Shown here piece by piece: positions 1 through 51,709 of a DNA stretch of 64,000 bases (the first letter of the stretch is position 1; each line of letters starts with the position of its first letter). This stretch comes from a virus: IMG/VR virus record IMGVR_UViG_3300025882_000001; one strand, given 5' to 3'. The notes beneath the pieces are model-generated. The model searched no databases. It was not told the DNA's origin and saw only the letters and a list, made by a program, of their open reading frames with translations. A program made the translations under genes and the position numbers.

Positions 1-631
1 ATAGTTCTCGGATTGCTTCATTCGCAGCAAGCGCACTCTTCACATTTGCTCCAATACTCTTTGCGGCACCCATTGCTTTTGCTCCAGCCTTGGCTCCTTC
101 TGCAGCTTCTGCGGCTGCCTTTGCTCCACCTATCAATTCTTGAAGTGTCTTTCCACTCTTGGCTGCTGCTTTTGCTCCACCTGCCGCAGCTTTTGCTCCA
201 CCGGTAAGAGCTTGCGCTCCACCAAGAGCAGCCTTGGCACCTTTCGTAGCATTAAGAATACCAATAGGAAGTAGAAACGATGCAAGAAGTCCAGCTGCCT
301 TTCCAGCATTCTTGGCATTTTTCGTATACTCATTACTATACCAAGAATCTCTAAGTATTCCAAAAAGAAGAGCATCGAGTAAGCCTCCTCCAAAGGCAAG
401 TGCTTGCTTTCCAAATGTATTATTCAGCTTTGCATCGCCCCTGGAAGTATCCAGTCCATATTGCATGGCAATATTTTTTACTGCTTCTATTCCTTTTTTG
501 TTTAATGAAGTTGGGTCTTGATTATATATAGCTACTAGTTTTAAGTTGTCGGCTAATTGCTGTTGCTGAAGTGCTCCTAGAAATCGAGTACCAACATCTA
601 TTGGTGTACTAAATATTTGTTCGTAGTCCAT
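1..631 (-). CDS. Partial copy (cut by window edge) of the 270-aa Gly/Ala-rich putative ejection protein; full copy at 51717..52529
   Basis: ATG at 631; matches 51899..52529. Confidence 0.75.
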   Translation of the reverse strand, partial: MDYEQIFSTPIDVGTRFLGALQQQQLADNLKLVAIYNQDPTSLNKKGIEAVKNIAMQYGLDTSRGDAKLNNTFGKQALAFGGGLLDALLFGILRDSWYSNEYTKNAKNAGKAAGLLASFLLPIGILNATKGAKAALGGAQALTGGAKAAAGGAKAAAKSGKTLQELIGGAKAAAEAAEGAKAGAKAMGAAKSIGANVKSALAANEAIREL

Positions 632-640
632 TATTCCCCC

Positions 641-1294: not shown

Positions 1295-2045
1295 TTTTAC
1301 TCCTTATATTAACTTTATATAAAAGATTTGTAAGACTTGGTACAAACACAGGTCTCTCATTTATAAGTCCATTTCGATAGTATTCATCAAGTTCTGCATA
1401 GTCGTTTGGATCATTAACCCTAATCTCATAGTTAACCTTTGGATATTTATTGATTAGCTTACTAATTCTATTCTCAACTTCTGGTGTATATTGTATCTGT
1501 TGTTTTGGATATTTTGAAGTTGAAGAATTTGGATAAGTATTTGCAGGAATTTTATTATTCTTAAAATACATAGAATACTCATTATTATTGAAAAAACCAG
1601 CATATGCTTGATTGGTTTCTAATTCTTTATTGCGTTGCATTGTGTCTTCAAAAACTAGATTAGACCTTTTAAGCATATTTCTGTATCCTTCAAGTTCTTT
1701 TTCATATTTTGCTTGAAGCTCTGCAAGATTGAGTCTATTCCCTGCTTCTATCCCTGCAACGGCTTTTCTTGTATCTGCTTCCAATTTAGCTACATCATAA
1801 GCGTTCTTTCTACTTTTTTCTCCTTCGGACTGTGTCACTTCTGTTCCATATAACCCGAGCAACGTATTTAATTTTTGACCGAGTAAGCCTGATATTAGAT
1901 TGGCTCCAGCCATTGTGTTGCTAAACGCCACATTCATCTGGTTACCCATCATGTTCGTAATTTCTGCCTGTTCTCGTTCCAAATCAGCTCTTATCTGATT
2001 ATAACGATCGGCAGTCTGACTAAGTGTTTCCCAAAATCCTGGCAT
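1284..2045 (-). CDS. Hypothetical virion protein, putative ejection protein (253 aa)
   Basis: RBS AAGGAGG; coiled-coil and Gly/Ala helical composition; operon position. Confidence 0.55.
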   Translation of the reverse strand: MPGFWETLSQTADRYNQIRADLEREQAEITNMMGNQMNVAFSNTMAGANLISGLLGQKLNTLLGLYGTEVTQSEGEKSRKNAYDVAKLEADTRKAVAGIEAGNRLNLAELQAKYEKELEGYRNMLKRSNLVFEDTMQRNKELETNQAYAGFFNNNEYSMYFKNNKIPANTYPNSSTSKYPKQQIQYTPEVENRISKLINKYPKVNYEIRVNDPNDYAELDEYYRNGLINERPVFVPSLTNLLYKVNIRSKNGF

Positions 2046-2057
2046 CTTTCCTCCTTA

Positions 2058-2672
2058 CTAAAGTCCTAAAAGCTTTAGAAGACCAGCTGGAGACTGTGTT
2101 CCGAAAAGCAATGCCGGAGACGCTCCAACAAGATTTCCGAAAAGTCCACCAAAGAATCCTGACTGATTTTGGCTTCTCTGCATTTGCATTGCAGCATCTG
2201 CCTGCATCTTCTGTAGTTGATAATTCAAAGCCGATTGTGAACCTTGCATTGCCGCAGTATTCTGAGCTGCAGCATTGGCAAGATTTCCCTGAAGACTGTA
2301 TCCCAATAATCCAGTACCAGTCTGATACGCATTGTTGAGATAACTATTGTATGCTTGACGAGTCCCTTCCAGATTACTGGCGAGAGAAGACTGAAGCTGA
2401 CCTGTAGCAAAAGGATTCTGACCAGCTGCCTGCATACGCATGCTGTTCAAGTATTGCTGAGCGGCAGCGTCTACACCAACTTTCTTCAGGTCATTATACA
2501 TACCTCTATTACGAGAACTATATGGATCAAGAAACTCTTCTCCCAGTGCAGTATATCTACTCGTATCAACCGAGTAAGTCTTTGGTGTATATGCCTGTGT
2601 CAGCTGTTGCGGAGTCATATTATACCCCTTCAACCTACTCTGCCCGAAAAGTGCATTTCCAAGCCATGACAT
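2058..2672 (-). CDS. Putative DNA ejection (pilot-type) protein; likely start ATG 2672 (MSWLGNALFG)
   Basis: Gln/Ala/Gly-rich with a GFFGGLFG C-terminal segment. The ATG at 2672 overlaps the upstream stop (TAATG); the longer 2693 start is a TTG. Confidence 0.6.
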   Translation of the reverse strand: MSWLGNALFGQSRLKGYNMTPQQLTQAYTPKTYSVDTSRYTALGEEFLDPYSSRNRGMYNDLKKVGVDAAAQQYLNSMRMQAAGQNPFATGQLQSSLASNLEGTRQAYNSYLNNAYQTGTGLLGYSLQGNLANAAAQNTAAMQGSQSALNYQLQKMQADAAMQMQRSQNQSGFFGGLFGNLVGASPALLFGTQSPAGLLKLLGL

Positions 2673-2941
2673 TATTTCACCTTCCTTATCCAATCAAACG
2701 GGATATTCAAGCGAGCCCAACCATCTGGAAACCTTGCTTCAAGATACAACTTCGTCTCACCTTCACTCTTCGTCTGAGTAAAACGAATATTGCTTGTTTC
2801 CGGTTTCTCAACATTGATGTCGCCAGTTCCAACGGATTGGAGTTTTTTATCTAGTTCATCGATCTTATTCCAGATTCGATGAAGTTCTTTGTTCATCTCT
2901 TCGAACGAATCGAGAGCCCTATAGGAACTTATTCGTTTCAA
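2672..2941 (-). CDS. Small virion-associated protein (89 aa)
   Basis: Translationally coupled to both neighbours; short coiled coil plus beta-rich C-terminus. Confidence 0.6.
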   Translation of the reverse strand: MKRISSYRALDSFEEMNKELHRIWNKIDELDKKLQSVGTGDINVEKPETSNIRFTQTKSEGETKLYLEARFPDGWARLNIPFDWIRKVK

Positions 2942-5900
2942 ATTTCCTCCTTCGTTACAAAAGAACGAATTACATAGCGTATTACCGAAATCGGTTCTTG
3001 CGATTCAATACTTATATGAAATACAGACTTCTGTACCGGTTTGCCATAGTATTCAGATGCCTTTTTGTTGTCAATATATATCTCCGATTGTACTCGTGTA
3101 TTTCCATTATAGGTTTGAATATCGTATATCTGCTTTTTATTCTTAATCCCGAAATCGGTAACATAATCAAGTTCCGTTGTGCGAACTCTTGATGTATAAG
3201 TGGAAACATCGCTTCCAAAAAGTTTCTGAGAAATTGCATAGGTGGTAAGATAACGACCATTGTTATAGGATATTGTTCTTACCAAGATTCCTGGAATTGT
3301 CGACACAGCTTTTGTCTCTGGAGGAATAATTATCGGAGGAAGAATTGGAATAGACGGCGATTCCAATGTTTCAATATCAGTAGAAACTGTGATTACAGCA
3401 TAGCCATCTTCAGTTGAATAGACTCCTTTCAGATAGGCGTCATACGCATCAGGCGTTTCAATCATATAAGTAGCCCATCTTCCAGTGCTGATTCCATACA
3501 AGAATACTATGATTTGCTGAAATTTTCCTGGAGCATCTACTGTCTCACCAATCACTGCGACAGCATTTCGATCCTGAATATATTCCACATACACATGACC
3601 AGTAAGCCATTTGAAAGAAGGAAACGCTGTTCCCTCGGCACTCAATTGAGAATAGTTGTTTTCTTTCATTGCTTCACCAATTGGAACTACTTTGTTTCCA
3701 TCTACAAGATAGAGATTGCCGTTGAAGTAGACAAAAATACCAGTTTCAGTAGCAACCACATGACTACGCTGAAGAGCACCACAAGACTTACTCGTATATT
3801 CAATAGCAAGAGTATCGGCATTGATGATAGAATACTCTTCCTTCCCGAAGGCATATATTCTTCCATTGTAAGGAATGAGAACATTCGGAACAAATCCAAG
3901 AACACAGTATTCTTCTTGATAGTTAAATATAGATGGTTGATAAGGTAAACTACGAAGCACAAGATTATCGGTATTGACATTAACCTTTGGATCAAGAGGA
4001 AAATAGACATTTCCTGCGTAGATTATACCATTGTACACACATTGGCAGTTTCTTCTTACGCTTACATTATTTACCGTCTCCGAGTATCCAGCGTCAATAT
4101 TGAAAGAAGCATAGCGTGTTCCATTATCATGTATAGTTGCTTTATAGAGACCAGTATCTGAATCAAAAGTAAAATTATCATAATTAAGTTCTTTTTCACC
4201 AACTAAGCGATATAACTCCTGTTCAACGCCATTCAGCATTTCTACGGCATATAAACGAACTGCTGTAATTCGGCGAGAAACTAAGTGCAACATTGCAATA
4301 TTTATATTCAAATCTGCTTCAATATTCCAAGTTCCAGTTCCGGGAACAGTATGATCCCAAACGACGTCTGAAAGTGGAGAAATACTAATTCCATCGTAGA
4401 CAAAAGCTATGCGGTAACGAACGCTAGTTCCATGTTCAAATCCAGTTCCTATCGTATCACGAAAAGTTAGAATATCTTCTTGAAAATGTAATTCACCAAC
4501 ATAAGACAAATCCACATTTGGTGGATCAAGTTCTTCAACATTGTAGAGCACTATATTATTAGCAAAAGCAAAAGCTATTGTTTCATGAATAAGATCAAAG
4601 ACTTTGTATTTCTCTGTTGTTTGTCCTTCTTCAATAGACGTTCCTTCTTTGGTGATCTCACCAACCAATAATGGAACATAGAACAAAGCAGAATTAGTAG
4701 CATTAGAATATTGCACATCTGCTGGACTGAAGTATACTAAATTGTTTTTAGATGGTGTAAGAATTGATTTACTCTCGTTGGCAAGAAGTGAATAATGAGT
4801 ACGCTGCTCTTTGTGGCTTCCAGGAAAAGAAGATAAATCCGAAGCGAAAACAGCAAATCTCGCACTTCCGTCAGATTCAACTTCAGGATTATTAAAGAAC
4901 TTTGTGAGATGAAAATATCTTCGGTAGTGAGTTGATCCAAGAAGAATATCAAAGAATTCGTAATCCCAGACATTCACAGGTTCTTGCCCATTCCAACAAT
5001 AATAAATATCTTGTGCTCTTACATCTGAATTAAAATATACATCTTCTTCTCCCTCATATAACGTATTAGGTGTAAGTGGCATAGCCCATATTATATTCGA
5101 ATTTACATAGCTTTGGCTACTAGAATCAAAAGTACTTATGTGTTGAAAGTATGCCATACCACATCCATAATGTGGTCTACTGTAATGTCTTATATCCTGA
5201 GACAGCGATTCAAATTCACAACCCAAATGCGAATTTAGCCACGTTTTTGCTTTGCAGGCAATTTCATAACCAACTATATTGTTTACATAATCTAATATAG
5301 TTAATGAGCCAATTAGATGAGCATTACTATGTATATCACCATTGTCTACGTAAGCGAATCCACAATATCCTGGAGAGTATATTTTAGTTACTTGCGAAAT
5401 ACCTGTAATATAATCTACATATTCATCATCGTTACTTACATCACGCAAATATAGTTCGTTTAATTTCAAATACAAGTCCAAGAACCCACACTCTGTATCT
5501 ATCGAACTATTTGCTCCGTTAGTATTCGAGACCGGCTCACTATTAGCAAATGCTTCATAAGGAATTCTCAAATAGCCAGCTTCTTCACCATTTGGACGAT
5601 ATTCATATCCATTTTCATTCCATCCTAATTTATAACCAGAACTTGTTATGAAATGTTGAGTTTGTACCCAATAACAATAACAGTCAATCTTCCTATACGG
5701 CATAAATGGAAGCTTGCTTCGATTCAAAGTATTTTCGGCACAAGATACTGTTATCTCTGGTTGATTATAAACGAATAAGTTTTTGCTGAAGGAGAAGAGC
5801 ATGTCTTCTTCCGTTGCAAGAGAATTGAGATAAACATTGTCTCCCATGTTATATGCCAAGAATACATAGTCTTTTGAAACTGCTATAGAATCTAATTTAC

Positions 5901-6702
5901 TTCCTACTGGATTGTTTGTTTCCATCACTTTTACATGAGCAAGAATAACATCGCTTCCTGCGCTAATTGACAATAGTTCTTCTGGATAAACACCGTTTTC
6001 TTGAAATACCGAACTCAGATTAAGTTTTGATATAAATAAGGAGCTTCCCTTATAATAGGCAAAATATATATGCACAGGATACCATATATTCCCTATCTCT
6101 ACTTTATCGTAACTCCACGCCAAGGGCAACGATGGAGCAAGAGGAAAAGAGCTATATGTTATATTCTCTTGTATATCATATAAATACAAATTACCAAAAC
6201 CGTACTGAGCATAGAGAATATATCTTTCGTTGATTGGAACAGCAAACTGAATATTTTCCTGAGTTGAATAACCATACTTGGAAGAAATCACATCTTCTTC
6301 GAAAATTATATCATTTCTATCAACTCCGATAAGGTCTCCTTTGGAATATCCATACCGCAGGTACTTCGTATGCCCACTGTCTTGAATAATGCTCATCTGG
6401 CGTCCAATAACGTCCATACAGGGACGATCTCCAGTTGGAGGACTAATGGTACCAACCCGAACTCCATCTACGTATACGTGCCCATTTATATCTTCAGAAA
6501 CGGCAATATCTTTTCCTTCAACGAATAAGTTTTTCTGCTGTATGTATGCGGTTCCAACTGCTTTGTCTTTGTTCTCTGGTACTGCCGTACTCAGTGAACC
6601 ATCGACTCTTGCATTCCAAAAAGACACAGCTCCGCCAGGAGCATCTGGTATCGCCGGAGCTGCGCCATTGAACGAGTTGAAAGGGACTATTTCTTTTGGC
6701 AT
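2938..6702 (-). CDS. Large tail protein, probable nozzle/stabilisation protein (1254 aa)
   Basis: Beta-rich, aromatic/acidic; C-terminal part has propeller-like segments (GRIYAFGK, VVATETGIFVYFNGNLYLVDGNKVVPIGE) typical of P22 gp10-like nozzles; position after the adaptors. Confidence 0.6.
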   Translation of the reverse strand: MPKEIVPFNSFNGAAPAIPDAPGGAVSFWNARVDGSLSTAVPENKDKAVGTAYIQQKNLFVEGKDIAVSEDINGHVYVDGVRVGTISPPTGDRPCMDVIGRQMSIIQDSGHTKYLRYGYSKGDLIGVDRNDIIFEEDVISSKYGYSTQENIQFAVPINERYILYAQYGFGNLYLYDIQENITYSSFPLAPSLPLAWSYDKVEIGNIWYPVHIYFAYYKGSSLFISKLNLSSVFQENGVYPEELLSISAGSDVILAHVKVMETNNPVGSKLDSIAVSKDYVFLAYNMGDNVYLNSLATEEDMLFSFSKNLFVYNQPEITVSCAENTLNRSKLPFMPYRKIDCYCYWVQTQHFITSSGYKLGWNENGYEYRPNGEEAGYLRIPYEAFANSEPVSNTNGANSSIDTECGFLDLYLKLNELYLRDVSNDDEYVDYITGISQVTKIYSPGYCGFAYVDNGDIHSNAHLIGSLTILDYVNNIVGYEIACKAKTWLNSHLGCEFESLSQDIRHYSRPHYGCGMAYFQHISTFDSSSQSYVNSNIIWAMPLTPNTLYEGEEDVYFNSDVRAQDIYYCWNGQEPVNVWDYEFFDILLGSTHYRRYFHLTKFFNNPEVESDGSARFAVFASDLSSFPGSHKEQRTHYSLLANESKSILTPSKNNLVYFSPADVQYSNATNSALFYVPLLVGEITKEGTSIEEGQTTEKYKVFDLIHETIAFAFANNIVLYNVEELDPPNVDLSYVGELHFQEDILTFRDTIGTGFEHGTSVRYRIAFVYDGISISPLSDVVWDHTVPGTGTWNIEADLNINIAMLHLVSRRITAVRLYAVEMLNGVEQELYRLVGEKELNYDNFTFDSDTGLYKATIHDNGTRYASFNIDAGYSETVNNVSVRRNCQCVYNGIIYAGNVYFPLDPKVNVNTDNLVLRSLPYQPSIFNYQEEYCVLGFVPNVLIPYNGRIYAFGKEEYSIINADTLAIEYTSKSCGALQRSHVVATETGIFVYFNGNLYLVDGNKVVPIGEAMKENNYSQLSAEGTAFPSFKWLTGHVYVEYIQDRNAVAVIGETVDAPGKFQQIIVFLYGISTGRWATYMIETPDAYDAYLKGVYSTEDGYAVITVSTDIETLESPSIPILPPIIIPPETKAVSTIPGILVRTISYNNGRYLTTYAISQKLFGSDVSTYTSRVRTTELDYVTDFGIKNKKQIYDIQTYNGNTRVQSEIYIDNKKASEYYGKPVQKSVFHISIESQEPISVIRYVIRSFVTKEEI

Positions 6703-8356: not shown

Positions 8357-8868
8357 TATTTGTCTCCTTGTATTTTCTCAATCAGGATTTCTATCCTGCT
8401 TCTGTTTGTATAGATTACCTGCTTCAGTAATCCGTTTATGTAGATTAAGAATCTTTGGAACGCTTCGTAGATTACGGTAAGCGCCCGAATACCTATTTTT
8501 TTAAGAAGCGAGTAAGTTTGCTTGTGCAGTATACCGATACTATATCTACGTGTTAGATTGAAACTCTTCTTCCAACTTATACTTCTGGGCTGTATACCAA
8601 AGACCTTCAACTTACTCGCTTGCTTGCACATTGTTATCTTTTTCTGGAAAGAAACAGAAATATCTCCAAACCTTTTTCCCATCTCTTTCTTCTCTTGATG
8701 TCCAAGGTTCAGTGGTACACGAAGACCAACAGATGTAGGAATCGCAGTTGCAATCTGAACTTCAGAATGCTTCGGCAATTCTTCTTTCTGCGGAACATGG
8801 AAAATCGGAATCGCAAACTTGTTGTGAGCAAAGATAAGTGTCTTTCCGAGTGGTTCTCTTCTCAACAT
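8356..8868 (-). CDS. Hypothetical basic protein (170 aa)
   Basis: Fills the gap exactly, with TGATG and TAATG overlaps at both ends. Confidence 0.55.
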   Translation of the reverse strand: MLRREPLGKTLIFAHNKFAIPIFHVPQKEELPKHSEVQIATAIPTSVGLRVPLNLGHQEKKEMGKRFGDISVSFQKKITMCKQASKLKVFGIQPRSISWKKSFNLTRRYSIGILHKQTYSLLKKIGIRALTVIYEAFQRFLIYINGLLKQVIYTNRSRIEILIEKIQGDK

Positions 8869-9473
8869 CAGAAGTATACCTGTGTAATTGTCGCAGGAGA
8901 ATTCCCGCTATTATATTTCGTTTTAACTGCCTGAAAAGCACCAGAGAACTTATTCGCATATAATTCAACAGTTCCAGGCTCCATAGGAAAGATTCCAGCC
9001 AACTCTGTAATCATCAAGTATAGTGCACAGAGCTGAACTTCAACATCAGATATGCTAGGAATTGATGTATTCCATGCTTCAATAGCATTTGGATCAATTT
9101 CAATTCCAGTGTCAGGTGGAAATGGCTTTATAGCTCCGCTTATACTTTCCCAATATTCTATTTCTAAATTATGATTTCCAACGGTTTCGTTTGTGATAAG
9201 TTCTCTATTGGAGTCGTATATCAATAGTTTTCTGTGTTTCACTTCCCAGTAGATATCGTCTCCAGAAGTATCTTTCACACTGTCTATCTTGACCGCTTTT
9301 TGTTCCAGAAGATCCCTATATTGACTTACACTAGTTGGTTTAAGCACAGTAGTCATTAGTCTTACTTCCCTGGAAATCTTCTCAAAAGCGATATTATAAA
9401 ATTGCACAAAAGCTTTTGCCGTAAGCTCCGGTATAATCAACTGAGCAAGTGCATATAGTTCACCGTTTGTCAT
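8868..9473 (-). CDS. Putative head-tail adaptor-like protein (201 aa)
   Basis: N-terminal MTNGELYAL helix pattern and helical C-terminus as in adaptor proteins; position after the capsid genes. Confidence 0.45.
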   Translation of the reverse strand: MTNGELYALAQLIIPELTAKAFVQFYNIAFEKISREVRLMTTVLKPTSVSQYRDLLEQKAVKIDSVKDTSGDDIYWEVKHRKLLIYDSNRELITNETVGNHNLEIEYWESISGAIKPFPPDTGIEIDPNAIEAWNTSIPSISDVEVQLCALYLMITELAGIFPMEPGTVELYANKFSGAFQAVKTKYNSGNSPATITQVYF

Positions 9474-15260: not shown

Positions 15261-15514
15261 TTTGTTCTCCCAGATATTACATCTTCTTCAAATAGGTCTG
15301 TCGTTTCGCCTATGAAGCCAATTGCAGAGCTTCCAGGAAGGAGTTCTTCTTCTCCTGGAAACGCTTTCTCTATTATGAAGCGAATAAGTTCTGTGTTGTC
15401 TGTGGCAGAGATACCGTGTTCTTTCAACTCTTTCACCACAGCTCCCACTCTATTTGTCCAAACGATGCATCGGGCAATACCTTCGGCATCGATATCTTCT
15501 TCTTTCTTCTTCAT
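15257..15514 (-). CDS. Small hypothetical protein (likely start 15514)
   Basis: ATG overlaps the terminase stop (ATGA); its own stop overlaps the portal start. Confidence 0.6.
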   Translation of the reverse strand: MKKKEEDIDAEGIARCIVWTNRVGAVVKELKEHGISATDNTELIRFIIEKAFPGEEELLPGSSAIGFIGETTDLFEEDVISGRTK

Positions 15515-19514: not shown

Positions 19515-19521
19515 GATTCAT

Positions 19522-19549
19522 AAATTAAACGAATTCTGGAATTTGTCAA
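19522..19549 (-). promoter_or_regulatory. Candidate sigma70-type promoter for the late (minus-strand) operon
   Basis: TTGACA (19549..19544), 16-nt spacer, TAATTT (19527..19522), just upstream of the ORF start. Confidence 0.45.
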
Positions 19550-29520: not shown

Positions 29521-29521
29521 A

Positions 29522-36046: not shown

Positions 36047-36067
36047 ATTACTTACAAAGGAAGAACA

Positions 36068-36367: not shown

Positions 36368-36373
36368 GTAACT

Positions 36374-44700: not shown

Positions 44701-47700
44701 GCTTCCGCATATTGTCCAAGATATCGCCAAAGGTTTTCCAGTCTTGAATAGTCATCTGCTTCATCGATTTATGGAAAAAATAACGAGTAAGTCCTTCTAT
44801 AGGGATGTCAGCATCTTTGGTGAATCCGTAGAACTCCAGATTCGTTCTAATCTTCGAGACGAGGTTCTCCAAGTCGAAATCTTTGTATTCTTCATATTCA
44901 GCAGCAGAAGCTGCCAACTTTGTTTGTTCCAGAAACATTCTTTTCTTTTCTTCTGCCAACGAAACAACTTCTTGTTCTTTTGCCAATCGCAGTGTCTTAT
45001 CAAGAGAATTGGAGAGGTCTTCCAACTCCTTCAAGCGGATTTTTACCTCGTTGTATTTCTGCTTAAGTTCCAAGTAATTCTTTGGTACGATTACTAACTT
45101 CTCTCCAGGCTTCACTTGAATTGGAACTCGGATTACTTCCTTAACTGGAGTTGGAACTTCTTCCTTTGTTGGAACTGGAACTGGAGTAGAGATAAGTGTT
45201 TCCGGAATTATATTGGAATTCGGAGTGAACATGTGTTTGGCTACATTGTCATACCACGTCTGCTGAATGCCATAGAAGGCTTCTTTCACTTTGAAAGGAA
45301 CTACAGAAGTTGCCAATCCCATACCGGTATGATTTGTGGCATTTCGCATCTCATAAATTCGCTCCACATACTTATCAATTGGTTCAAATCCAGTTACTCT
45401 CCCATTGGAATCTAAGATGGGCTGACGCATATAGGAATTGGGAAGCTTCGCTTGAAAACTACCCATCATAAAGATGTCATATATTTTCTGTAGTGTTGGA
45501 TCTCCCAGTGAGAGACGATACCACTTCTCATCGATGTCAGCAATCTCTCTTGGAACCATAACTTCTCCTGCGTCTCTGGAGATTTTCGATTTGTATGCGT
45601 TCACATGGCGGAAAATATCGTTCACATCCTTAAAGAAGCCTTTTCGGAAATAGGCTTTATCTTTCTGGAATACTTCACTGGCTATTCCCTTGAGAGCGTT
45701 GTAAGTAGTCATATCGATTAAGTCTTGCTGGATGAGTTCCAGAATCTTTGTTCGAATTCTGGTATAGACCTCCAGCGGATTCCCCTTATAGGATTCGTGA
45801 GGGAGAAACTTCTTCGCCTTTTCCAAAAACTTATTTATCTTCTCTTCCGAAAGGTCTGAAGTCCGCTTCATACTATTAAGGTCAGCATACAAATCAAGAA
45901 GTTCGTCGGCTACATGAGCAGATTTATCCAGGAAGTTCTTTCCGAGAAGCACATACACAACATCTTCATTCTTGGCATCTCTCCAGGCATACGGTTCCAA
46001 GTCCTGATACTTCTTTCCTTCTTTCTGATTTCTTATAGCTCTTCGTATGTCTTCAAGAAACTTCTTTTGATTCGCTGTGCCGCTTTTCTCAATGTATTGT
46101 ACCACTTCTTCAAAGTTACTTATGGCGATTGGATGTCGAGTCATCTCAAAAAGAATTTGTTCCCAATTTGGAACACCAGTCTTTTCTTTTTCAGAAATGG
46201 CTCGCAATGCTCTATAGACGTATGGTAACTTATCTCCATAGATATTTGTGAGATCGAAGTTCCAATCAACTCCACCAAGTACTCTTACTGCTCCGCCAAA
46301 GTAGGTAGAAGCACCGGTATACATACTATTATAGTTTTCTACTTGCATCTTTGTAGTGAAGTAATCATTCCAACCACCAAGAGCAGTATTAAGCTTCCGG
46401 AAGGGAGCCAGAGCTTGCAGATAGAGACGCATTGCGGGCTTTATCTTTTCCGTTCCAGTTGCTTCTTCCCGAACATAGTCTTCAAATTCTATCTCTTTTC
46501 CATTTTTCGTAATCTTGAAGAGATCGAAAAGCATGTGAATTGATGGGTCTTCGAATCTTGGAACTTCGTCAAAATCGGTAGGGTCTGCAACCTTGGTTAT
46601 AGCAACTGCCATCTTACGAATTGCCCAATCTACGCTCTTTTCTTTTTCTGCTTTGGGAGTTAGTTCGAAAACTCCATCTTTACTCTGAACTCGAATTGGC
46701 TTCCCGTTATCAAGTGCTGCATAGTAAGCTTGCTTCAGTGCAGTAGTCTCATTTACAACAGTTGCGAGTAAGTTTCTGCCATAGGTTGTGGCAATCGATG
46801 TCTTGGCAATTGTTCCAGGAGCTCCAAGAAGCGCTGGAGAACTCATTATCTGTTTCAACTTCTCCTTCTCCGGAGTCATCATACCAAAGACTTCTTCGTC
46901 TGCTTTCTTTCCAGTTTCTGGATCAACATATTTCTTAACTGCCTGACCACCCCACATATCATTGTTCTTCTTCATTTCTTTCAGCCAGCTGAGCTTCATT
47001 CCTTTTCCTTCGCCATTGTCCCGCCTTCCAGCGAACCAGAGATAATAACTATCTCCATCATCATCAGAACCGCCAGTAACTTCCTTGGCAGTAGAATGAA
47101 TCATTATCTCATTACTGTCAATATCCATGAAGCCCCTGAATCTCAGTATCTGCATTCCAGCCGGATTATCTTGTGGAACTCTTTGAACTGCGATATGATT
47201 AAAGAAATCTTGGAGAAACTTCAGAGAGAGGTCTTTAGGAATCTTTTTCTTTCCCTGTACCATATTCCAGAGGTCGCCAAGCTTATAAACTTTGTTGTTC
47301 AATTCAATATTGAGATTCCGAAGATTACGTCCAAGCATGAATTCGTCTCTAGCAATCTGTGTGTCTTCAAATGCCCAACCCCGATTCTTCACTTTATATA
47401 CTGAGTTTCCTATCTTGGGACGCAGTGCTCGGTTGATAATATATTTGTTGAACAAAGAAGAAACATAACGGACTGCATACTTGTCCCCAAGTGAAACATC
47501 GTGTTTCATTGCCACAAGCGTACTGATAACATCCTTATAGCTACTCTGCTTCGTATCAAAGTCTTCTGGAGAGAAGCCTTCAATGCTATCAAACATATCG
47601 TTGAAATCATTGAGATTAGATATCTTCTTTAGTAGTGTTTTAATTACCCTTGCATTTCCAGAGTAGAGAATTCTGGCAACACGGTCAATAGAAAGCTCAT

Positions 47701-50700
47701 CAATGTTTTCTGCAATCCATTTCAGGTCTTCGTCGGTGTATTCGTTTCTCGCTTCAATATCTTTATCAAACTTAAGATTCTTAAATTCGTTTCCCATTGC
47801 AGAACGAACGAGTAAGTTATCGATAATGTCTTCTCTTATTTCTTTGGAATGATTCAGGTGCACCAACATCTGTTTTGCCAGCGGATTAACATGGTTTATT
47901 CCGGCGGCATCGCTTATCTCAGAGAGCACTATTTTGATATCGTTTACATCTATGCCATAAGTATTTATATCGCCATCAACTACTGCTTTTCCATTCACTA
48001 TTTGAATCTTTGTTTTGCGTCTTGCACCAATCTGTTTAATAGCATTATCATCAGCTACCATATCTACACCATTGGCTTTCATCCATTCCTGAAGTGGTTT
48101 CGGAGCAACCTTCATCAGATATTTTCCGAGCATCATTCCGCCTTCTGGATCGGAGTGGACAATAAAACTCTTATTGGTTCTTCCAGAAATAGGAAGTCCG
48201 GCAGAAGCATTCAGAGCATCAAGAAACTGCTGAGAAACATAAACATTACCATCTTCTACTGATTCTTCAATTGTTGGATCAAGAGCACGCTTCGCTTGAA
48301 GAGCATAATTCACATCTGCAATTACAACTTTTATATTCCTGAGATCAGCTACTCCAGGATCGGCAATGAAGTCTTCTGGTTGTAATCCTATGCCCTGATT
48401 AAAGATTATTTGAAATCTCTTATTGATCTTGGACGAAGAATCAATGAATCCTTCTTTGGCAATGAAACTGAAATCAGTTGCCTGATTGAAATCACGCAGA
48501 TAGAGAAGTGTATTCTTGTATTGTGTTTCGTAGTAGTTTCTCCAGTATTTCTGCTGAGCATCATTTATCTTTCCTCCGATTATTTCCTTCAAGAAACGCT
48601 GATAATCTTCTTCGTGCATTTTCTTTAATTCTTCCAACGGAGTTCCGGTATACTTTGATATTTCTTGCTGAAGCTGTTCAAAGGAAAGGTCATCTACTTC
48701 TGGATGTTTGACAACAAAGTTGAATTCGCCTTTATCGTTTCTCCCGCCGATGTAGATATACTTGTTCACAACCTTCTTTCCAGTATTCGGGTCAGTTATA
48801 TTGGCATCTTCAAATCCACCTTCCATCTTCAGAATCATCTGACGAAGCATCCCACCATCTCGAAGCTTTTGGAATTCTTCATAGAAGTGTGGCATTGCAG
48901 CTTCAGTCTTCTCAATGTTTGAATACCAAGTTACTGTTTTAAGTGGCGAAGAAGTTCTTTGCTCCAATCCCTTCACCAGATTAAAGAGAGGTCGTCTCTT
49001 CGGAAGTAGTTGCGATACCTTCCGGTTACCAATAACTTCTCCGAACTTAATCGGAACAACTTTGAAGACGCCATTCTTCTCGTGGTTGATATAATAGTTG
49101 TCATTCATGTAGTCATAGTACTTTTTCATTATCACATACTTGTTAAGCACCGCATAATCGCTATCCACAATGTTCTCACGAAAGTGCTGTTTGTTTCGAT
49201 CAATCCACTTCAGAAGTATTTGCTTATCAGGATTCTTTCCAATCTCCAGAATGAAGTCATCAGTGATTTTCTGCACTGTCTTGTCATTTGCTTCTTCCGG
49301 AGTAAGAAGACGCTTGAAGGTATTAGCAATCTGCTGATTCCAGTTGGTTTCCGGAATATTTGATTTCACCATGATATCCGAAACAAAAGAACGATAAATC
49401 TCTTTCTGAAGATTGTTATCGGAAGTTGCGGATGCTTCTGTGGTCTTTATCCAGATACCAGTTCCCCTATCGTCATACCCTCGTGCTTGCATATATTGTT
49501 CAAAGTTTTTCCAATACGGATTGTCACCTCGGTCGTAAGAGTCTGGAGTGATAACTGTTGCTTCGGATTCAGTAATCTTATGAATCACATCAATATCCGG
49601 AGAAACCTTTCCTTCTGTGGGAACGAATGCTACTATATCATCTTGAAGAATTACATCTGGGTTTACTTCTTTCTTCCCTGCTCCAGCTATAGAGAACTCA
49701 TTTTCTCCATCGGTTACAAGGACAGTTGAAATAGAAAGCTGAGTAGTGCGAAAGCCATCGGCTTGATATAATTCTCCAGGAATTATTTGAGTAAGACGAG
49801 TTATTCCTTGACGTACTTCTTTCATTCTCTGACGCACGGTTCTATATGTTTCTACTATATTCTTCACAGTTTCTTCTGAAGGAGTAGGAAATCCATATTC
49901 TTCCATGTCTTGTTTAATGGCATCAACCAATGACCGAAAAGATGCTCTCTCTTGTTCTACCTTCACTTCTTTGTCAACCGCAGCTTCTATTCTTTGAGAA
50001 GCGGTTTCTGGAGTGGGAGGCGCTCCGGCACTGGGAATTGTAAGTAGTTCAATCTTATAGAACATCTGTGTTGGAGTTTCTGTAGTGGCAGTAAGTTTAT
50101 AGCGTTTTCCTTCAACTTCAACTACACCAGATTCTCCAGCTTTTAGTCCTATTCTTTCTGCTTTGGTAAGATCGACTGCAAGAACAGGATTCTTCTGAGA
50201 GATTGCAGATTTAATCTCTTGATTAGCTGTATCTATGGAAACCAGCTTCAGAGAAGGAGAAGTTGGAGTCGGAGTTGGAACAGTAATTGGTTCCAGTGTA
50301 TAAGTAACAAACTTCTTCGCTTTATCTATTCCAGAATTTGTTATCTTAAATTGTTTACCTTCGATGACAATAGCACTAGATTCTCCTTCGGCGAGACCAA
50401 TTTTCTTGGCTACTGGAAGAGAGCGAGTAATAGTATTCTTCCTTCCGGCAAGAATCTCTTGTCTATCTTTTGGAAAGATACGTGTTTGAACTTGTCCAGG
50501 AACTTTTGGTTCTTCGTATTGGAGAACTTCCGTTCCAACAATTTGTTCTCCAAGATTCTTTTGTTCCTCTCTTGCTTTGGCTATCTCTTCGTCAATTGCT
50601 TCTTTTTGTGCTTCAAGAGTTTCAATGTTCATATACATTTTGTCTACTAACTCATCCGGATAATCCTTCCCTTCAGGAATAATTGACGCAATAACAGAAC

Positions 50701-51709
50701 TGAGATAGTTTCTTTTCCGACTGGTACCAATGTATTTATCGAATAAGTCTGCTACATTCTTCTTTACTGCAGGAGAAGCTTCAGCATATCCTTCTACTCC
50801 ACTAACAGTATCCGGAAGTTTGGCAGTTGGTCTTAAATATGGCTGAATAAGCTTGTAAGCTTGTTTCTCTGCAGCAGGACGATCACGATAGGCAAAAAAT
50901 CCACCAATAAGGTATTGATATATCTGTTCTGGAGTTGTTTCTCTGCGCATTGTTGAGGGAAGACCATTCCACATTGCTCCAGTAAGAGTGCGAGCAATTG
51001 CCTGAGTGCTGAGACCAGCAGAAGCTCCCCCAATAAGAGCTCCCATCGCATTGGCAATCAATCTGTCTCCAGCTTCCATATACATTCCACCAGCCAGACC
51101 ATGAAGCATGGCATCAATTCCATACTGCCAGTTGGAAGTGGCTCCAGCTATTCCCAGACGAGCGGCACCTTCAACTACATCACCTACAACTGGATTCTTG
51201 AGTAATTTAAGAGCACTATTTACCGCTCCCATCTTTCCCAGTGTAGCTTCGGTAGCAACTTTCTTCGTTATACTGGAAAAATATTTCGTAGCGGTGGGAG
51301 TAATTTTTTTCATTACTGCATTCGAAACAAGCAGCGGAACTGATTTCCCAGCAACTGCCTTCGCTACTCCCCTGAGACCTGGAATGGGGACGAGAAAGCC
51401 GGCGTATCCTGCTGCCTGACCAACTGCTTTGGCAACCCTTTCCCATGGATTTACAGGGGCTTGTTCGCCTATTTTGAGAGTAGAGAACCCCTGTAGCCAA
51501 CCTTCGCCAAGGTAGCGAAGAGCTCGGAAGACATTAAAGTTTACTTCGTCTTCGGCAACTTCTCGAAAAGGAAGTTGATAGTAGGCGGCATGTTGCTTAA
51601 GAAGTTGAACCTGAGACTGGTTAAAGCGCTCAGGTTCCCTCATATAGTAGTTTATATACTGTTCCGTGATTGGCTTATTCATCCTCGGAACAAAATATGG
51701 ATATTGCAT
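41708..51709 (-). CDS. Giant multidomain virion protein (~3333 aa from ATG 51709) containing a two-barrel DNA-dependent RNA polymerase
   Basis: EDGNVYVS (D1166), LGKY (K1209), VDMVADDNAIKQIG (K1238), QRVPQ (R1523), GGSDDDGDS (D1562-D1566); numbering from the track's 51748 start. Last gene of the ejection cluster. Confidence 0.8.
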   Translation of the reverse strand: MQYPYFVPRMNKPITEQYINYYMREPERFNQSQVQLLKQHAAYYQLPFREVAEDEVNFNVFRALRYLGEGWLQGFSTLKIGEQAPVNPWERVAKAVGQAAGYAGFLVPIPGLRGVAKAVAGKSVPLLVSNAVMKKITPTATKYFSSITKKVATEATLGKMGAVNSALKLLKNPVVGDVVEGAARLGIAGATSNWQYGIDAMLHGLAGGMYMEAGDRLIANAMGALIGGASAGLSTQAIARTLTGAMWNGLPSTMRRETTPEQIYQYLIGGFFAYRDRPAAEKQAYKLIQPYLRPTAKLPDTVSGVEGYAEASPAVKKNVADLFDKYIGTSRKRNYLSSVIASIIPEGKDYPDELVDKMYMNIETLEAQKEAIDEEIAKAREEQKNLGEQIVGTEVLQYEEPKVPGQVQTRIFPKDRQEILAGRKNTITRSLPVAKKIGLAEGESSAIVIEGKQFKITNSGIDKAKKFVTYTLEPITVPTPTPTSPSLKLVSIDTANQEIKSAISQKNPVLAVDLTKAERIGLKAGESGVVEVEGKRYKLTATTETPTQMFYKIELLTIPSAGAPPTPETASQRIEAAVDKEVKVEQERASFRSLVDAIKQDMEEYGFPTPSEETVKNIVETYRTVRQRMKEVRQGITRLTQIIPGELYQADGFRTTQLSISTVLVTDGENEFSIAGAGKKEVNPDVILQDDIVAFVPTEGKVSPDIDVIHKITESEATVITPDSYDRGDNPYWKNFEQYMQARGYDDRGTGIWIKTTEASATSDNNLQKEIYRSFVSDIMVKSNIPETNWNQQIANTFKRLLTPEEANDKTVQKITDDFILEIGKNPDKQILLKWIDRNKQHFRENIVDSDYAVLNKYVIMKKYYDYMNDNYYINHEKNGVFKVVPIKFGEVIGNRKVSQLLPKRRPLFNLVKGLEQRTSSPLKTVTWYSNIEKTEAAMPHFYEEFQKLRDGGMLRQMILKMEGGFEDANITDPNTGKKVVNKYIYIGGRNDKGEFNFVVKHPEVDDLSFEQLQQEISKYTGTPLEELKKMHEEDYQRFLKEIIGGKINDAQQKYWRNYYETQYKNTLLYLRDFNQATDFSFIAKEGFIDSSSKINKRFQIIFNQGIGLQPEDFIADPGVADLRNIKVVIADVNYALQAKRALDPTIEESVEDGNVYVSQQFLDALNASAGLPISGRTNKSFIVHSDPEGGMMLGKYLMKVAPKPLQEWMKANGVDMVADDNAIKQIGARRKTKIQIVNGKAVVDGDINTYGIDVNDIKIVLSEISDAAGINHVNPLAKQMLVHLNHSKEIREDIIDNLLVRSAMGNEFKNLKFDKDIEARNEYTDEDLKWIAENIDELSIDRVARILYSGNARVIKTLLKKISNLNDFNDMFDSIEGFSPEDFDTKQSSYKDVISTLVAMKHDVSLGDKYAVRYVSSLFNKYIINRALRPKIGNSVYKVKNRGWAFEDTQIARDEFMLGRNLRNLNIELNNKVYKLGDLWNMVQGKKKIPKDLSLKFLQDFFNHIAVQRVPQDNPAGMQILRFRGFMDIDSNEIMIHSTAKEVTGGSDDDGDSYYLWFAGRRDNGEGKGMKLSWLKEMKKNNDMWGGQAVKKYVDPETGKKADEEVFGMMTPEKEKLKQIMSSPALLGAPGTIAKTSIATTYGRNLLATVVNETTALKQAYYAALDNGKPIRVQSKDGVFELTPKAEKEKSVDWAIRKMAVAITKVADPTDFDEVPRFEDPSIHMLFDLFKITKNGKEIEFEDYVREEATGTEKIKPAMRLYLQALAPFRKLNTALGGWNDYFTTKMQVENYNSMYTGASTYFGGAVRVLGGVDWNFDLTNIYGDKLPYVYRALRAISEKEKTGVPNWEQILFEMTRHPIAISNFEEVVQYIEKSGTANQKKFLEDIRRAIRNQKEGKKYQDLEPYAWRDAKNEDVVYVLLGKNFLDKSAHVADELLDLYADLNSMKRTSDLSEEKINKFLEKAKKFLPHESYKGNPLEVYTRIRTKILELIQQDLIDMTTYNALKGIASEVFQKDKAYFRKGFFKDVNDIFRHVNAYKSKISRDAGEVMVPREIADIDEKWYRLSLGDPTLQKIYDIFMMGSFQAKLPNSYMRQPILDSNGRVTGFEPIDKYVERIYEMRNATNHTGMGLATSVVPFKVKEAFYGIQQTWYDNVAKHMFTPNSNIIPETLISTPVPVPTKEEVPTPVKEVIRVPIQVKPGEKLVIVPKNYLELKQKYNEVKIRLKELEDLSNSLDKTLRLAKEQEVVSLAEEKKRMFLEQTKLAASAAEYEEYKDFDLENLVSKIRTNLEFYGFTKDADIPIEGLTRYFFHKSMKQMTIQDWKTFGDILDNMRKPTLIQRLFGDKYGQQPWIRKIDYFLFPSAIDKRLLTMPNMKANMVQTVYVDSDGSIKTGWGFAPTSLAGSLQNTIGNILFEGTRQEEQLAGRFSQEIEPYLEQPGINGKRIWEYESILRDQHAAETLSDWYALRGEFGKSNAFADNALFYKMEAEKFRNTYMDVFLKKYKINTGTEIIELTGDEIRERISDIITKYNKDISLIQKGKLDDQNENIFLKKYTTTPEKLFGERISRRVLGKRRLNEILKDIPFFDLEKFRQDMHDLLATGKPFPMQDIGIDGIYRLSQSAAVQREILEADKLTKGSDGEFNNRLSKIVRRRSDDKIPWTGELPYEHYYPHRNEDITQLKKQILPQIQEIVDKFQAIILEEERVNKLLHDMAPTREALDDLTAEQYSKYQELMQERQRIVSEKYELSHQYLFLINRIHSSNENLRIDEHIHEADRIHELSLEEMRTGEARKLAYQDDALLWELAGKKRMFSQERRGIELIDYSRVPEEYVSHNKDVIRTFHKNMAWLLSKQLIVDAEVNNAFGDATDSWVKFFKLYIGDSLGNPTVITRDMLDDPNMKLKHNPYLFFTDSYQSQLLYKLGRMTGLIKVNGEIPEELKKIDYWTLNKISQAEARYEMASLLAHTKSMVANMFGGTQMTAISAGLDNLKKARDMDYIRKTFSPTFKNRNDLKRAVAEEGVIEEYLINETGGMNINVTESLKNFFDDYARKLAGDEMLDEVSLKALAQKHHVSDALYSKVSWFMRAPEVELRTDAFMAHYIQFYNLFNGALQGSFDEHGNWRFNPILSRLAKDGVKCTQFLYTAPYRPAIARSAMGKVLTRFQLWTYNSMNTRSMIYEQAKVYGFREGTMQMDKFQRMMAMDLITLALANAFMFSLFDSALPAPWNWLKDLSEWIFGDKKEKQSAFFGTYPYYIAPLQIISPPIIRVFPAMVTSMMSGNWQKFTDYTVWTMFPFGRLARDIHKSYLNPKSFIDRMTGLPFSGMEGFGKEKPEE

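What the first reader, a model, noticed from the sequence alone, without database searches (positions are those of the whole stretch)
376..50748. Genome-wide over-represented non-palindromic motif CGARTAAGY
Seen by manual scan of the 51.9-kb unit (minimum counts). CGAATAAG, 26 copies: plus strand 5772, 6522, 9907, 12131, 15381, 16737, 19569, 20355, 20702, 20888, 27668, 29679, 35476, 36672, 37654, 50740; minus strand 2928, 8949, 15754, 17097, 20655, 27245, 29984, 32274, 32603, 41272. Of these, 22 continue with T. CGAGTAAG, 13 copies: 376, 1880, 2571, 3787, 8509, 8611, 10949, 10955, 24516, 24563, 42228, 44784, 47809. A zero-order model at an eyeballed ~38-40% GC expects about 3-4 in total. Copies fall in several reading frames (RIS, TNK, TYS, LIR, TLF) and on both strands, so no protein motif explains it. 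Five copies cluster in the 19.5-20.9 kb control region. Inference: a selected DNA signal, such as a Chi-like, uptake-like or HIP-like host word, or a binding site for a phage protein.
Basis: seen in the sequence. Interest (0 to 1): 0.7.

Follow-up and report, generated by a model that had tools for sequence, protein, structure and literature searches.

The report
Phage-private DNA word with dialects
An uncultivated 52-kb phage keeps 40 copies of the 9-letter DNA word CGARTAAGT, mostly inside its genes; relatives carry one- or two-letter variants and sampled bacteria do not carry it, so it looks like a self-recognition tag read by an unidentified phage protein.

Summary
The window is one circular 51,898-bp phage genome plus wrap-around. 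Markov orders 0-5 expect 3-7, and a codon-preserving shuffle gives 9.5±1.8. It is the top-ranked 8- and 9-mer. The word is sharp: CGA[AG]TAAG[T>C], with an A-rich 5' flank and a T-rich 3' flank.

Thirty-five of 40 copies lie in ORFs, in all five frames that avoid a TAA stop, and orientation is unrelated to transcription. Against a relative with 70% nucleotide identity, 17 of 21 well-aligned sites are kept, versus 12% of all 8-mers. Four kept sites swap A and G at the degenerate position.

Relatives carry dialects: CGARCAAGT, TGARCAAGT, TGAACAAGC. None of 322 bacterial genomes around the nearest MAG is enriched, so it is not a Chi-, uptake- or HIP-like host word.

Best reading: a phage-private tag on double-stranded DNA, read by a phage protein. 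Candidates are a TerS-like HTH protein (packaging) and the AEP primase-helicase (priming). Earlier scan notes describe similar words in other phages, and one primase reading there later fell.

The parts
376..383 (+). CGAGTAAG site (in ORF, antisense)
   Evidence: lost in M-clade relative
1880..1887 (+). CGAGTAAG site
   Evidence: kept in M
2571..2578 (+). CGAGTAAG site
   Evidence: kept in M as CGAATAAG
2928..2935 (-). CGAATAAG site, codons 3-5 of ORF 2672-2941
   Evidence: kept in M as G-form
3787..3794 (-). CGAGTAAG site
   Evidence: kept in M
5772..5779 (+). CGAATAAG site
   Evidence: kept in M
6522..6529 (+). CGAATAAG site
   Evidence: kept in M
8509..8516 (+). CGAGTAAG site
   Evidence: kept in M
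8611..8618 (-). CGAGTAAG site
   Evidence: kept in M
8949..8956 (-). CGAATAAG site
   Evidence: kept in M
9907..9914 (+). CGAATAAG site
   Evidence: lost in M
10949..10956 (-). CGAGTAAG site, overlaps 10955 as a palindrome, in the major head protein gene
   Evidence: searches agree that one member of the 10949/10955 pair is kept in M, but the two alignments differ on which
10955..10962 (+). CGAGTAAG site
   Evidence: see 10949: the two alignments differ on which member of the pair is kept in M
12131..12138 (+). CGAATAAG site
   Evidence: kept in M
15381..15388 (+). CGAATAAG site
   Evidence: kept in M
15754..15761 (-). CGAATAAG site in TerL gene
   Evidence: kept in M as G-form
16737..16744 (+). 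CGAATAAG site in TerL gene
   Evidence: kept in M; homologous D-clade site reads CGAACAAG
17097..17104 (-). CGAATAAG site
   Evidence: kept in M
19569..19576 (+). CGAATAAG site, non-coding, 55 bp upstream of the TerS-like gene start
   Evidence: kept in M
20355..20362 (+). CGAATAAG site, non-coding control region
20655..20662 (-). CGAATAAG site, left member of a divergent pair with 47-bp offset
20702..20709 (+). CGAATAAG site, right member of the divergent pair
20888..20895 (+). CGAATAAG site, non-coding control region
24516..24523 (-). CGAGTAAG site, left member of a second divergent pair with the same 47-bp offset (inside ORF 24332-24781)
24563..24570 (+). CGAGTAAG site, right member of the second pair
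27245..27252 (-). CGAATAAG site
27668..27675 (+). CGAATAAG site
29679..29686 (+). CGAATAAG site in primase-helicase gene
29984..29991 (-). CGAATAAG site in primase-helicase gene
32274..32281 (-). CGAATAAG site
32603..32610 (-). CGAATAAG site
35476..35483 (+). CGAATAAG site, codons 3-5 of ORF 35469-35873
36672..36679 (+). CGAATAAG site
37654..37661 (+). CGAATAAG site
41272..41279 (-). CGAATAAG site
   Evidence: kept in M as G-form
42228..42235 (+). CGAGTAAG site in the 3346-aa gene
   Evidence: kept in M
44784..44791 (+). CGAGTAAG site in the 3346-aa gene
   Evidence: kept in M
46765..46772 (+).
   Evidence: kept in M
47809..47816 (+). CGAGTAAG site in the 3346-aa gene
   Evidence: lost in M
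50740..50747 (+). CGAATAAG site in the 3346-aa gene
   Evidence: lost in M
19515..21067 (.). Control region between the leftward late operon and the rightward early operon. It holds 5 of the 40 sites, about 5 times the coding density. It is mostly non-coding, except the small early ORF 19777-20088.
18717..19514 (-). Candidate reader 1: 265-aa TerS-like protein with a central helix-turn-helix. It is the first gene of the late operon and lies directly upstream of TerL in relatives.
29501..31330 (+). Candidate reader 2: archaeo-eukaryotic-type primase (PriCT_1 helix bundle) fused to a DnaB-like helicase

Best explanation
CGARTAAGT is a phage-private recognition word. It is a roughly 9-bp asymmetric site, with A-rich 5' and T-rich 3' flanks, that a sequence-specific protein encoded by this phage lineage reads on double-stranded phage DNA. 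Purifying selection writes it into the genome about once per 1.3 kb, regardless of gene direction or reading frame.

It works like a DNA uptake sequence works for Neisseria: a self-tag that lets a DNA-handling machine find or prefer the phage's own DNA. It also drifts into lineage-specific dialects.

Shown here: the enrichment, the selection on the DNA itself, the positional conservation, the dialects, and the lack of enrichment in the sampled bacterial genomes.

Inferred: The word would then mark phage DNA for the packaging terminase, with the densest cluster next to that gene acting as the main entry site. The AEP primase-helicase is a close second at about 20%.
For: Enrichment: 40 copies against 3-7 expected under Markov orders 0-5, and 9.5+/-1.8 under a codon-preserving shuffle. 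It is the top-ranked 8- and 9-mer, with a sharp one-mismatch profile.

DNA-level signal: all five stop-free frames are used. The sense:antisense ratio of 13:24 fits the 2:3 ratio of usable frames. Minor codons CGA, TCG, TTA and ACG are used to spell the word.

Selection: against M-clade contig G024 (70% nt identity over 30 kb), 20 of 25 sites are kept, or 17 of 21 in well-aligned DNA, against 12% of all 8-mers. Four kept sites swap A and G exactly at the degenerate position.

Dialects: the D clade carries 11 CGARCAAGT and no CGARTAAGT, with one homologous site differing only by T to C. L168 carries TGARCAAGT. L159, L170, L165 and L163 carry TGAACAAGC, about 5 copies against 0.2-0.3 expected in each.

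Not a host word: 322 bacterial genomes show no enrichment. Phages sharing a dialect span 39-52% GC.

Orientation-neutral, double-strand character: strand order along the genome is random, the +:- count of 26:14 gives P=0.08, and the purine/pyrimidine flanks look alike on both strands. Pooled sites are more evenly spread than random, with a maximum gap of 3.6 kb (P about 0.01-0.03).

TerS-like candidate: its gene sits directly upstream of TerL in relatives. It has a predicted three-helix HTH with weak matches to Myb, Tc3 and phage E217 TerS domains. Its language-model neighbours are labelled small terminase. Its recognition helix is the most variable stretch of an otherwise conserved region. 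Five sites cluster from 55 bp upstream of its start codon.
Against: No reader protein is demonstrated. The TerS-like assignment rests on gene order, weak fold matches (Z 4-5.5) and a language-model lead. Its recognition-helix variants do not map one-to-one onto dialects: three different helices go with TGAACAAGC. I know of no dsDNA phage with packaging signals dispersed through the genome, and pac sites are normally single. The true host is unknown, because the nearest MAG only carries short phage fragments. A host outside the sampled phylum could therefore still own the word. The primase-helicase tree fits the dialects equally well.
Confidence: 0.6

Rival explanations
1. Priming sites. The word is the template recognition or primer-start sequence of the phage's AEP primase-DnaB helicase fusion. 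Copies on both strands would set where DNA synthesis starts.
For: The gene at 29501-31330 carries a PriCT_1 helix-bundle domain. In AEP prim-pols this kind of domain binds the template recognition site, and an 8-nt site was reported for phage NrS-1 (PMC8718748). No DNA polymerase gene was found, so priming for a host polymerase would matter. Spacing per strand is 2-3.7 kb, which is in the Okazaki range. The plus-strand copies are more regular than random (CV P=0.02). The dialect groups are compatible with the primase tree. The conserved core begins with GA, a plausible purine start.
Against: Known AEP and DnaG-type sites are 3-4 nt, and the NrS-1 8-mer was later found dispensable in favour of GTG. 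The minus strand has a 13.5-kb gap and no regular spacing. There is no polarity switch around any candidate origin. Flanks that look alike on both strands suggest duplex recognition. Relatives at 35-36% primase identity (L160, L164) show no convincing word. An analogous primase reading of another phage word in this scan was later marked as fallen. That is an unchecked note and I do not know the reason.
Confidence: 0.2
2. Dispersed operator, silencer or roadblock sites. A monomeric phage DNA-binding regulator, as with the stoperators of Cluster A mycobacteriophages or the P1 C1 operators, would bind the 40 sites to control transcription or block translocating host enzymes.
For: The word is asymmetric and sharply defined, with more than 20 dispersed copies and lineage-specific variants. 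That matches stoperators (PMC9283540; PMC6550527). Density is highest in the divergent control region. Many early proteins are unannotated and could include such a regulator.
Against: Stoperators lie in short intergenic gaps and are co-oriented with transcription, and reversing them abolishes function. Here 35 of 40 sites are inside ORFs, and orientation is random with respect to transcription. No repressor, integrase or partition gene was detected in the roughly 60 proteins scanned. The early genes are not conserved between dialect-bearing clades.
Confidence: 0.12
3. Modification or nicking motif. The word would be the target of a phage-encoded DNA-modifying enzyme or site-specific nickase, as with the localized nicks of T5 or Pseudomonas phage tf.
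For: A sharp 8-9-bp asymmetric motif with one R position looks like an enzyme recognition sequence. From my own knowledge, nick consensus words in phage tf are also far more frequent than chance.
Against: No methyltransferase, glycosylase or HNH/nickase gene was found in this genome. From my own knowledge, known nick motifs sit on one strand only, whereas here the split is 26:14. Modification targets are not normally selected to be abundant. Strong avoidance of GGCC, CGCG, ATTAAT and TTTAAA suggests largely unmodified DNA.
Confidence: 0.06
4. Host-owned word or host-factor site (Chi-like, uptake-like, or a host DNA-binding protein that the phage exploits).
For: Density of about 1 per 1.3 kb, coding-embedded copies, even spread and dialects all resemble DUS/USS (PMC3630211). 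The host is not identified, so only one phylum was sampled.
Against: There are 635 CGARTAAGT per Mb in the phage, against at most about 20 per Mb in 322 genomes. The bacterial counts are mostly below the reversed-word control. In the nearest MAG the matches pile up on short phage-like contigs. 119 unrelated viral loci that share one extended copy carry only 1-3 sites each. The same dialect occurs in phages of 39-52% GC. There is no strand skew of the Chi or KOPS kind.
Confidence: 0.04

Closest known systems
DNA uptake sequences of Neisseriaceae and their dialects (DUS, read by ComP; PMC3630211), and USS of Pasteurellaceae
   Same: Both are short non-palindromic words at about one copy per kb. 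Both occur in either orientation, are written through genes in several frames, are spread more evenly than random, and drift into lineage-specific one- or two-letter dialects. Both serve, or here are inferred to serve, as a self-tag for a DNA-handling machine.
   Different: DUS/USS belong to bacterial chromosomes and are read by the competence machinery. This word belongs to a lytic-looking phage lineage and is not enriched in the 322 bacterial genomes sampled. Its reader and the process it serves are unknown.
Stoperators/operators of Cluster A mycobacteriophages (L5 gp71-type monomeric repressor; PMC9283540, PMC6550527)
   Same: Both are phage-private, asymmetric, sharply defined sites, with more than 20 copies dispersed over the genome.
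   Different: Stoperators are 13-mers in promoters and short intergenic gaps, and they are strictly co-oriented with transcription. Here 35 of 40 sites lie inside ORFs, orientation is random, and no repressor or lysogeny genes were found.
Template recognition sites of primases (T7 gp4 GTC-type sites; AEP prim-pols pRN1 ORF904 GTG; NrS-1 TTTGGTTA/GTG, PMC8718748)
   Same: The phage encodes an AEP primase with a PriCT_1 helix bundle fused to a helicase. Copies lie on both strands at kb-scale spacing.
   Different: Known sites are 3-4 nt and are not selected for abundance. Here the word is 9 nt with flanks that look alike on both strands, and the minus strand has a 13.5-kb gap.
pac sites bound by small terminase (P22, SPP1, P1)
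   Same: A TerS-like HTH protein is the first late gene. The densest cluster of sites starts 55 bp upstream of it. From my own knowledge, P1 pac is also built from repeated short words.
   Different: Known pac sites are single, local elements. No dsDNA phage is known to carry dozens of dispersed copies.

Membership tests
Chi-like / KOPS-like host word | Strong over-representation in the host chromosome | tested here: not met
   None of 322 genomes is enriched: the nearest MAG, 20 relatives, and 300 genomes of the same phylum. Counts are at or below the reversed-word control. The true host is unknown, so this holds only for those searched.
Chi-like / KOPS-like host word | Orientation skew that follows replication or end-entry direction | tested here: not met
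   The +:- count is 26:14 (P=0.08). Strand order along the circle is random, with 20 switches against 18.7 expected.
DUS/USS uptake sequences | Resident in the chromosome of a naturally competent bacterium and read by its uptake machinery | tested here: not met
   The word is private to a phage lineage. There are no competence genes in the phage.
DUS/USS uptake sequences | About 1 copy per kb, both orientations, inside genes, even spread, dialects | tested here: met
   1 per 1.3 kb, 35 of 40 in ORFs, maximum gap P about 0.01-0.03, and five dialects in relatives.
HIP1-type iterated palindrome | Palindromic word | tested here: not met
   CGARTAAGT is not its own reverse complement.
Cluster A mycobacteriophage stoperators | Asymmetric site, more than 20 copies dispersed over the phage genome | tested here: met
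   40 copies of an asymmetric 9-mer.
Cluster A mycobacteriophage stoperators | Located in promoters or short intergenic gaps and co-oriented with transcription | tested here: not met
   35 of 40 sites are inside ORFs. The 13 sense to 24 antisense split matches the ratio of usable frames.
Cluster A mycobacteriophage stoperators | Cognate immunity repressor in a temperate phage | tested here: inconclusive
   No repressor, integrase or partition gene came up in Pfam or PHROGs scans of about 60 proteins. Most early proteins have no annotation.
Primase recognition sites | Phage encodes a primase with a template-reading module | tested here: met
   PriCT_1 plus DnaB_C in 29501-31330; PHROG primase hit.
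Primase recognition sites | Sites serve each lagging-strand template: regular spacing per strand or polarity switch at the origin | tested here: inconclusive
   The plus strand is regular (CV P=0.02). The minus strand is not, with a 13.5-kb gap. There is no polarity switch.
Primase recognition sites | Primer synthesis starts at the word on single-stranded template | not testable with these tools
   This needs an in vitro priming assay or junction mapping. Public reads were not available.
pac site / small-terminase binding sites | A small terminase that binds the site | tested here: inconclusive
   The 265-aa protein is TerS-like by gene order next to TerL, by a weak HTH fold match that includes phage E217 TerS at Z 4.5, and by Atlas neighbours at 0.91. 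No Pfam or PHROG hit was found. Binding was not tested.
pac site / small-terminase binding sites | Single local site at which packaging series start | tested here: not met
   Sites are dispersed over the whole genome. Only 5 of 40 lie in the cluster beside the gene.
Restriction-modification or other modification target | Cognate methyltransferase or modifying enzyme encoded nearby; the motif is avoided or neutral in frequency | tested here: not met
   No such gene was found. The motif is about 10-fold enriched rather than avoided. Modification itself cannot be tested here.

The most novel reading that the evidence does not exclude
A family of uncultivated phages that carry a virion RNA polymerase uses a genome-wide self word, a viral counterpart of bacterial DNA uptake sequences. 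The word is read by the phage's own packaging or replication machinery. It is kept at about one copy per kb by selection, or by competition between co-infecting genomes, and it diverges into dialects that could isolate lineages from one another.
Probability: 0.35. Interest if true: 0.85.

Novelty: new variant of a known kind. Interest (0 to 1): 0.62.

Why it matters
If a phage machine reads a private word scattered through the whole genome, then self-recognition of viral DNA is encoded differently from the textbook single pac, cos or origin site. That holds whether the purpose is packaging, priming or protection.

The dialects would give a simple sequence marker for lineage boundaries. They might also mark incompatibility between co-infecting relatives.

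The word also constrains codon choice in dozens of genes. That matters for genome recoding and for interpreting synonymous conservation in phages.

Earlier notes of this scan report comparable private words in other, unrelated phages and a halovirus. The phenomenon may therefore be general and still undescribed in the literature I could search.

Tried and rejected
Chance or composition: rejected by Markov orders 0-5 and a codon-preserving shuffle.

Protein motif: rejected, because five frames and both strands are used.

Small mobile insert or MITE: rejected. The copies lie in frame in conserved genes, with no length change against a 70%-identical relative.

Hairpin-displayed motif: rejected. 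Flank pairing energy is no better than at 2000 random positions.

Promoter or terminator: rejected, because orientation is unrelated to gene direction.

Recombination hot-spot: the block boundaries between the window and its 95-99% relatives show no obvious association with sites (by eye only).

Host word. Unrelated phages sharing the word: 119 viral loci holding one extended copy carry only 1-3 sites each.

Literature: no paper holds the word or its variants, and I found none on dispersed terminase sites.

Mapping dialects onto the TerS-like recognition helix or onto the primase tree: both are compatible and neither is decisive.

Weak words in the most distant primase relatives (GAATTGGC, GAATT[TA]GC, GAATACAAG): z scores are within the range of top words in control loci, so I do not claim them.

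Foldseek of the TerS-like model against PDB gave no match at E<=0.001.

Full report
WHAT THE WINDOW IS
The 64-kb window is one circular 51,898-bp genome followed by a repeat of its first 12.1 kb. It is a tailed phage. I found large terminase, portal and major head protein.

The replication block comprises an AAA_24 ATPase, an AEP primase (PriCT_1) fused to a DnaB-like helicase, Gp157 and a RuvC-like resolvase. Scans of about 60 proteins found no DNA polymerase, methyltransferase, integrase or repressor.

Genes run leftward from 1-19.5 kb, rightward from 19.7-36.4 kb, and leftward from 36.6-51.9 kb. Strong Shine-Dalgarno sites are visible. No phage record in the INPHARED collection matches at DNA level.

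THE OBSERVATION
Per genome unit there are 26 CGAATAAG, of which 22 are followed by T. There are 14 CGAGTAAG, because 46765 was missed, and four of these lie on the minus strand.

Expectation for both strands is 2.0-4.6 and 1.1-2.7 respectively under Markov orders 0-5. Shuffling synonymous codons within each gene leaves 9.5 +/- 1.8 copies, maximum 15, against 40 observed.

The word and its extensions head the list of over-represented 8- and 9-mers. It is sharply defined. Every position except the fourth (A or G) and the ninth (T, sometimes C) is fixed. One-mismatch neighbours sit at background, apart from CGAAGAAGT at 12 vs 2.2. The flanks are A-rich for three bases upstream and pyrimidine/T-rich for about six bases downstream. 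The same purine-then-pyrimidine pattern therefore appears on either strand.

IT IS A DNA-LEVEL SIGNAL
Thirty-five of the 40 copies lie inside ORFs. All five reading frames that do not create an in-frame TAA are used. The split of 13 sense to 24 antisense matches the 2:3 ratio of usable frames. Minor codons (CGA 15% of Arg, TCG 11% of Ser, TTA 11% of Leu, ACG 14% of Thr) are used to spell the word.

The flanks do not pair into hairpins. The order of + and - copies round the circle is random, and the 26:14 excess of + is not significant. Promoter, terminator, RNA-level and replichore-polarity readings therefore do not fit.

Pooled over both strands, the copies are spread more evenly than random, with a maximum gap of 3.6 kb (P about 0.01-0.03). 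Taken separately, only the plus strand is regular, and the minus strand has a 13.5-kb gap. Five copies lie in the non-coding DNA of the control region between the two divergent operons. That is about five times the coding density.

SELECTION AND DIALECTS
Relatives found through the large terminase fall into tiers. The 84% tier (M clade) carries the same word at an even higher density.

I aligned 30 kb of the window with an M-clade contig at 70% nucleotide identity. In that alignment 20 of 25 sites are still a site at the homologous position. In well-aligned DNA the figure is 17 of 21, against 12% for all 8-mers. Four of the retained sites have exchanged A and G at exactly the degenerate position (a first 10.8-kb alignment gave 8 of 10). 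M has further sites where the window has one- or two-mismatch near-sites, so copies are gained and lost by point mutation.

The 64% tier (D clade, 49% GC) has no CGARTAAGT at all but 11 CGARCAAGT in 33 kb. At one homologous position in the terminase gene the two clades differ by just that T/C.

Contigs reached through homologues of the primase-helicase and of the TerS-like protein extend the series. L168 carries TGARCAAGT. L159, L170, L165 and L163 carry TGAACAAGC, about 5 copies against 0.2-0.3 expected in each, and L159 has GAACAAG at 15 vs 2.6. L037 carries GAACAAGY. The most distant relatives (L160, L164, L161) carry nothing convincing. The shared core is GA-R-Y-AAG.

NOT A HOST WORD
The window's own assembly is not held. 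The nearest bacterial genome (G001) carries only short phage-like fragments, and its matches to the word pile up on those contigs. G001, 20 relatives and 300 further genomes of its phylum have at most about 20 CGARTAAGT per Mb, mostly fewer than a reversed-word control. The phage has 635 per Mb.

Phages sharing the TGAACAAGC dialect range from 39 to 52% GC, which argues against a host-set word. Of 119 unrelated viral loci that contain one extended copy, none has more than three. The Chi-, uptake- and HIP-like host options are therefore not supported, with the caveat that the true host is unknown.

WHO READS IT
Only a few proteins are conserved between the window and a TGAACAAGC-dialect phage. 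They are TerL, a 265-aa protein (18717-19514), the AAA_24 ATPase, a roughly 200-aa protein, the primase-helicase, Gp157 and a 102-aa protein. The early genes are not conserved.

The 265-aa protein is the first gene of the late operon and lies directly upstream of TerL in relatives. In the window a 498-aa ORF has been inserted between them, and that ORF is absent from close relatives. The protein's model (mean pLDDT 68) has an N-terminal beta domain and a helical part. Residues about 115-180 of that part match three-helix HTH domains weakly: R2 Myb, Tc3 transposase, c-Myb, and the small terminase of phage E217 (Z 4-5.5). Foldseek gave nothing significant. Its language-model neighbours include clusters named small terminase (0.91).

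The predicted recognition helix is the most variable stretch of an otherwise well conserved region. However, three different helix sequences accompany the same dialect, so there is no clean code.

The primase-helicase is the other natural candidate. Helix-bundle domains of AEP prim-pols bind template recognition sites, and an 8-nt site was reported for phage NrS-1. That site was later found to be replaceable by GTG. The primase tree is also compatible with the dialect groups. Neither candidate is proven, and public reads that might have shown ends, nicks or starts could not be obtained.

READING
What is shown:
- a phage-private, sharply defined, orientation-neutral word;
- kept at its positions by purifying selection on the DNA;
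- densest in the control region;
- evolving into dialects.

What is inferred: a phage-encoded protein reads it on duplex DNA for a process that does not care about transcription direction. I compare its behaviour to DNA uptake sequences and their dialects, because both would act as a self-tag for a DNA-handling machine.

I rank the readers as follows:
- TerS-like HTH protein, packaging tag: about 25-30%.
- Primase-helicase, priming or loading sites: about 20%.
- Dispersed regulator or roadblock sites: about 12%.
- Modification or nicking motif: about 6%.
- Host factor: about 4%.
- Something else: the remainder.

Stoperators of Cluster A mycobacteriophages are the closest phage precedent. They are intergenic and co-oriented with transcription, which this word is not.

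EARLIER SCAN NOTES
Notes of this scan describe comparable private words in other phages: TGTGGGCA in one large group, CCTTATCG in a halovirus, and a 17-mer in a cyanophage-like virus. Several of them were read as primase sites, and one such reading is marked as having fallen on a later check. These are unchecked AI notes. They made me keep the primase reading modest, and they show that the scan has met this kind of feature before on other DNA.

VERDICT
The feature is real and selected, and I could not find it described for this lineage. The mechanism is open.

Noticed in passing
window 1-51898 (whole genome): Strong avoidance of short palindromes typical of restriction sites: GGCC 1 vs 50 expected, CGCG 4 vs 45, ATTAAT 1 vs 14, TTTAAA 2 vs 15. 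Several 6-mers containing GGCC or CGCG are absent. This suggests unmodified DNA under pressure from host restriction systems.
   Followed up: partly
window 2523, 3988, 4522, 4932(-), 9090, 17351, 19945, 25832(-), 26750(-), 33794, 46919, 48275: A second over-represented word, TGGATCAA, occurs 12 times against 1.5 expected, although GATC as a whole is under-represented at 97 against about 187. I did not check whether relatives keep it.
   Followed up: no
window 17253-18730 (ORF 17237-18733, 498 aa): This ORF is a clean insertion/deletion. Several 95-99% relatives join 17252 directly to 18731, which places the TerS-like gene next to the 66-aa ORF and TerL. The only family hit is a faint tape-measure-like one.
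   Followed up: partly
window 18344, 22673 and others: CGAAGAAGT occurs 12 times against 2.2 expected. At two places it sits in the same AAGCGAA-AAGCCT context as the true site at 20355. It may be a weak variant of the word.
   Followed up: no
window 20100-21060: Repeat-rich DNA with no credible gene, between the two divergent operons. It contains several hairpins with GAGTA or GTAGT loops, a homopurine mirror repeat, and pyrimidine tracts around a palindrome. It is a candidate origin and/or early promoter region.
   Followed up: no
window 20655-20709 and 24516-24570: Two divergent pairs of the word have exactly the same 47-bp offset (39-bp spacer). Each spacer can form a short hairpin. One pair is non-coding and the other lies inside a small ORF.
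   Followed up: partly
window 39376-39878: Six tandem 66-bp units lie inside the 342-aa gene 39067-40095.
   Followed up: no
window 24795-36400: No DNA polymerase gene was recognised. The 516-aa protein (25456-27006) has no Pfam, PHROG or PDB sequence match. Replication may rely on the host polymerase or on the AEP domain.
   Followed up: partly
G001 contigs C236, C131, C20, C197, C224: The nearest bacterial MAG holds fragments of this phage or a close relative as short separate contigs (87-99% identity). No flanking host DNA was seen, so this is probably a binning carry-over rather than a prophage.
   Followed up: partly
L169:7-960: One relative with the TGAACAAGT-type word carries an N6/N4 DNA methyltransferase gene just upstream of its replication block. 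The window has no counterpart.
   Followed up: no
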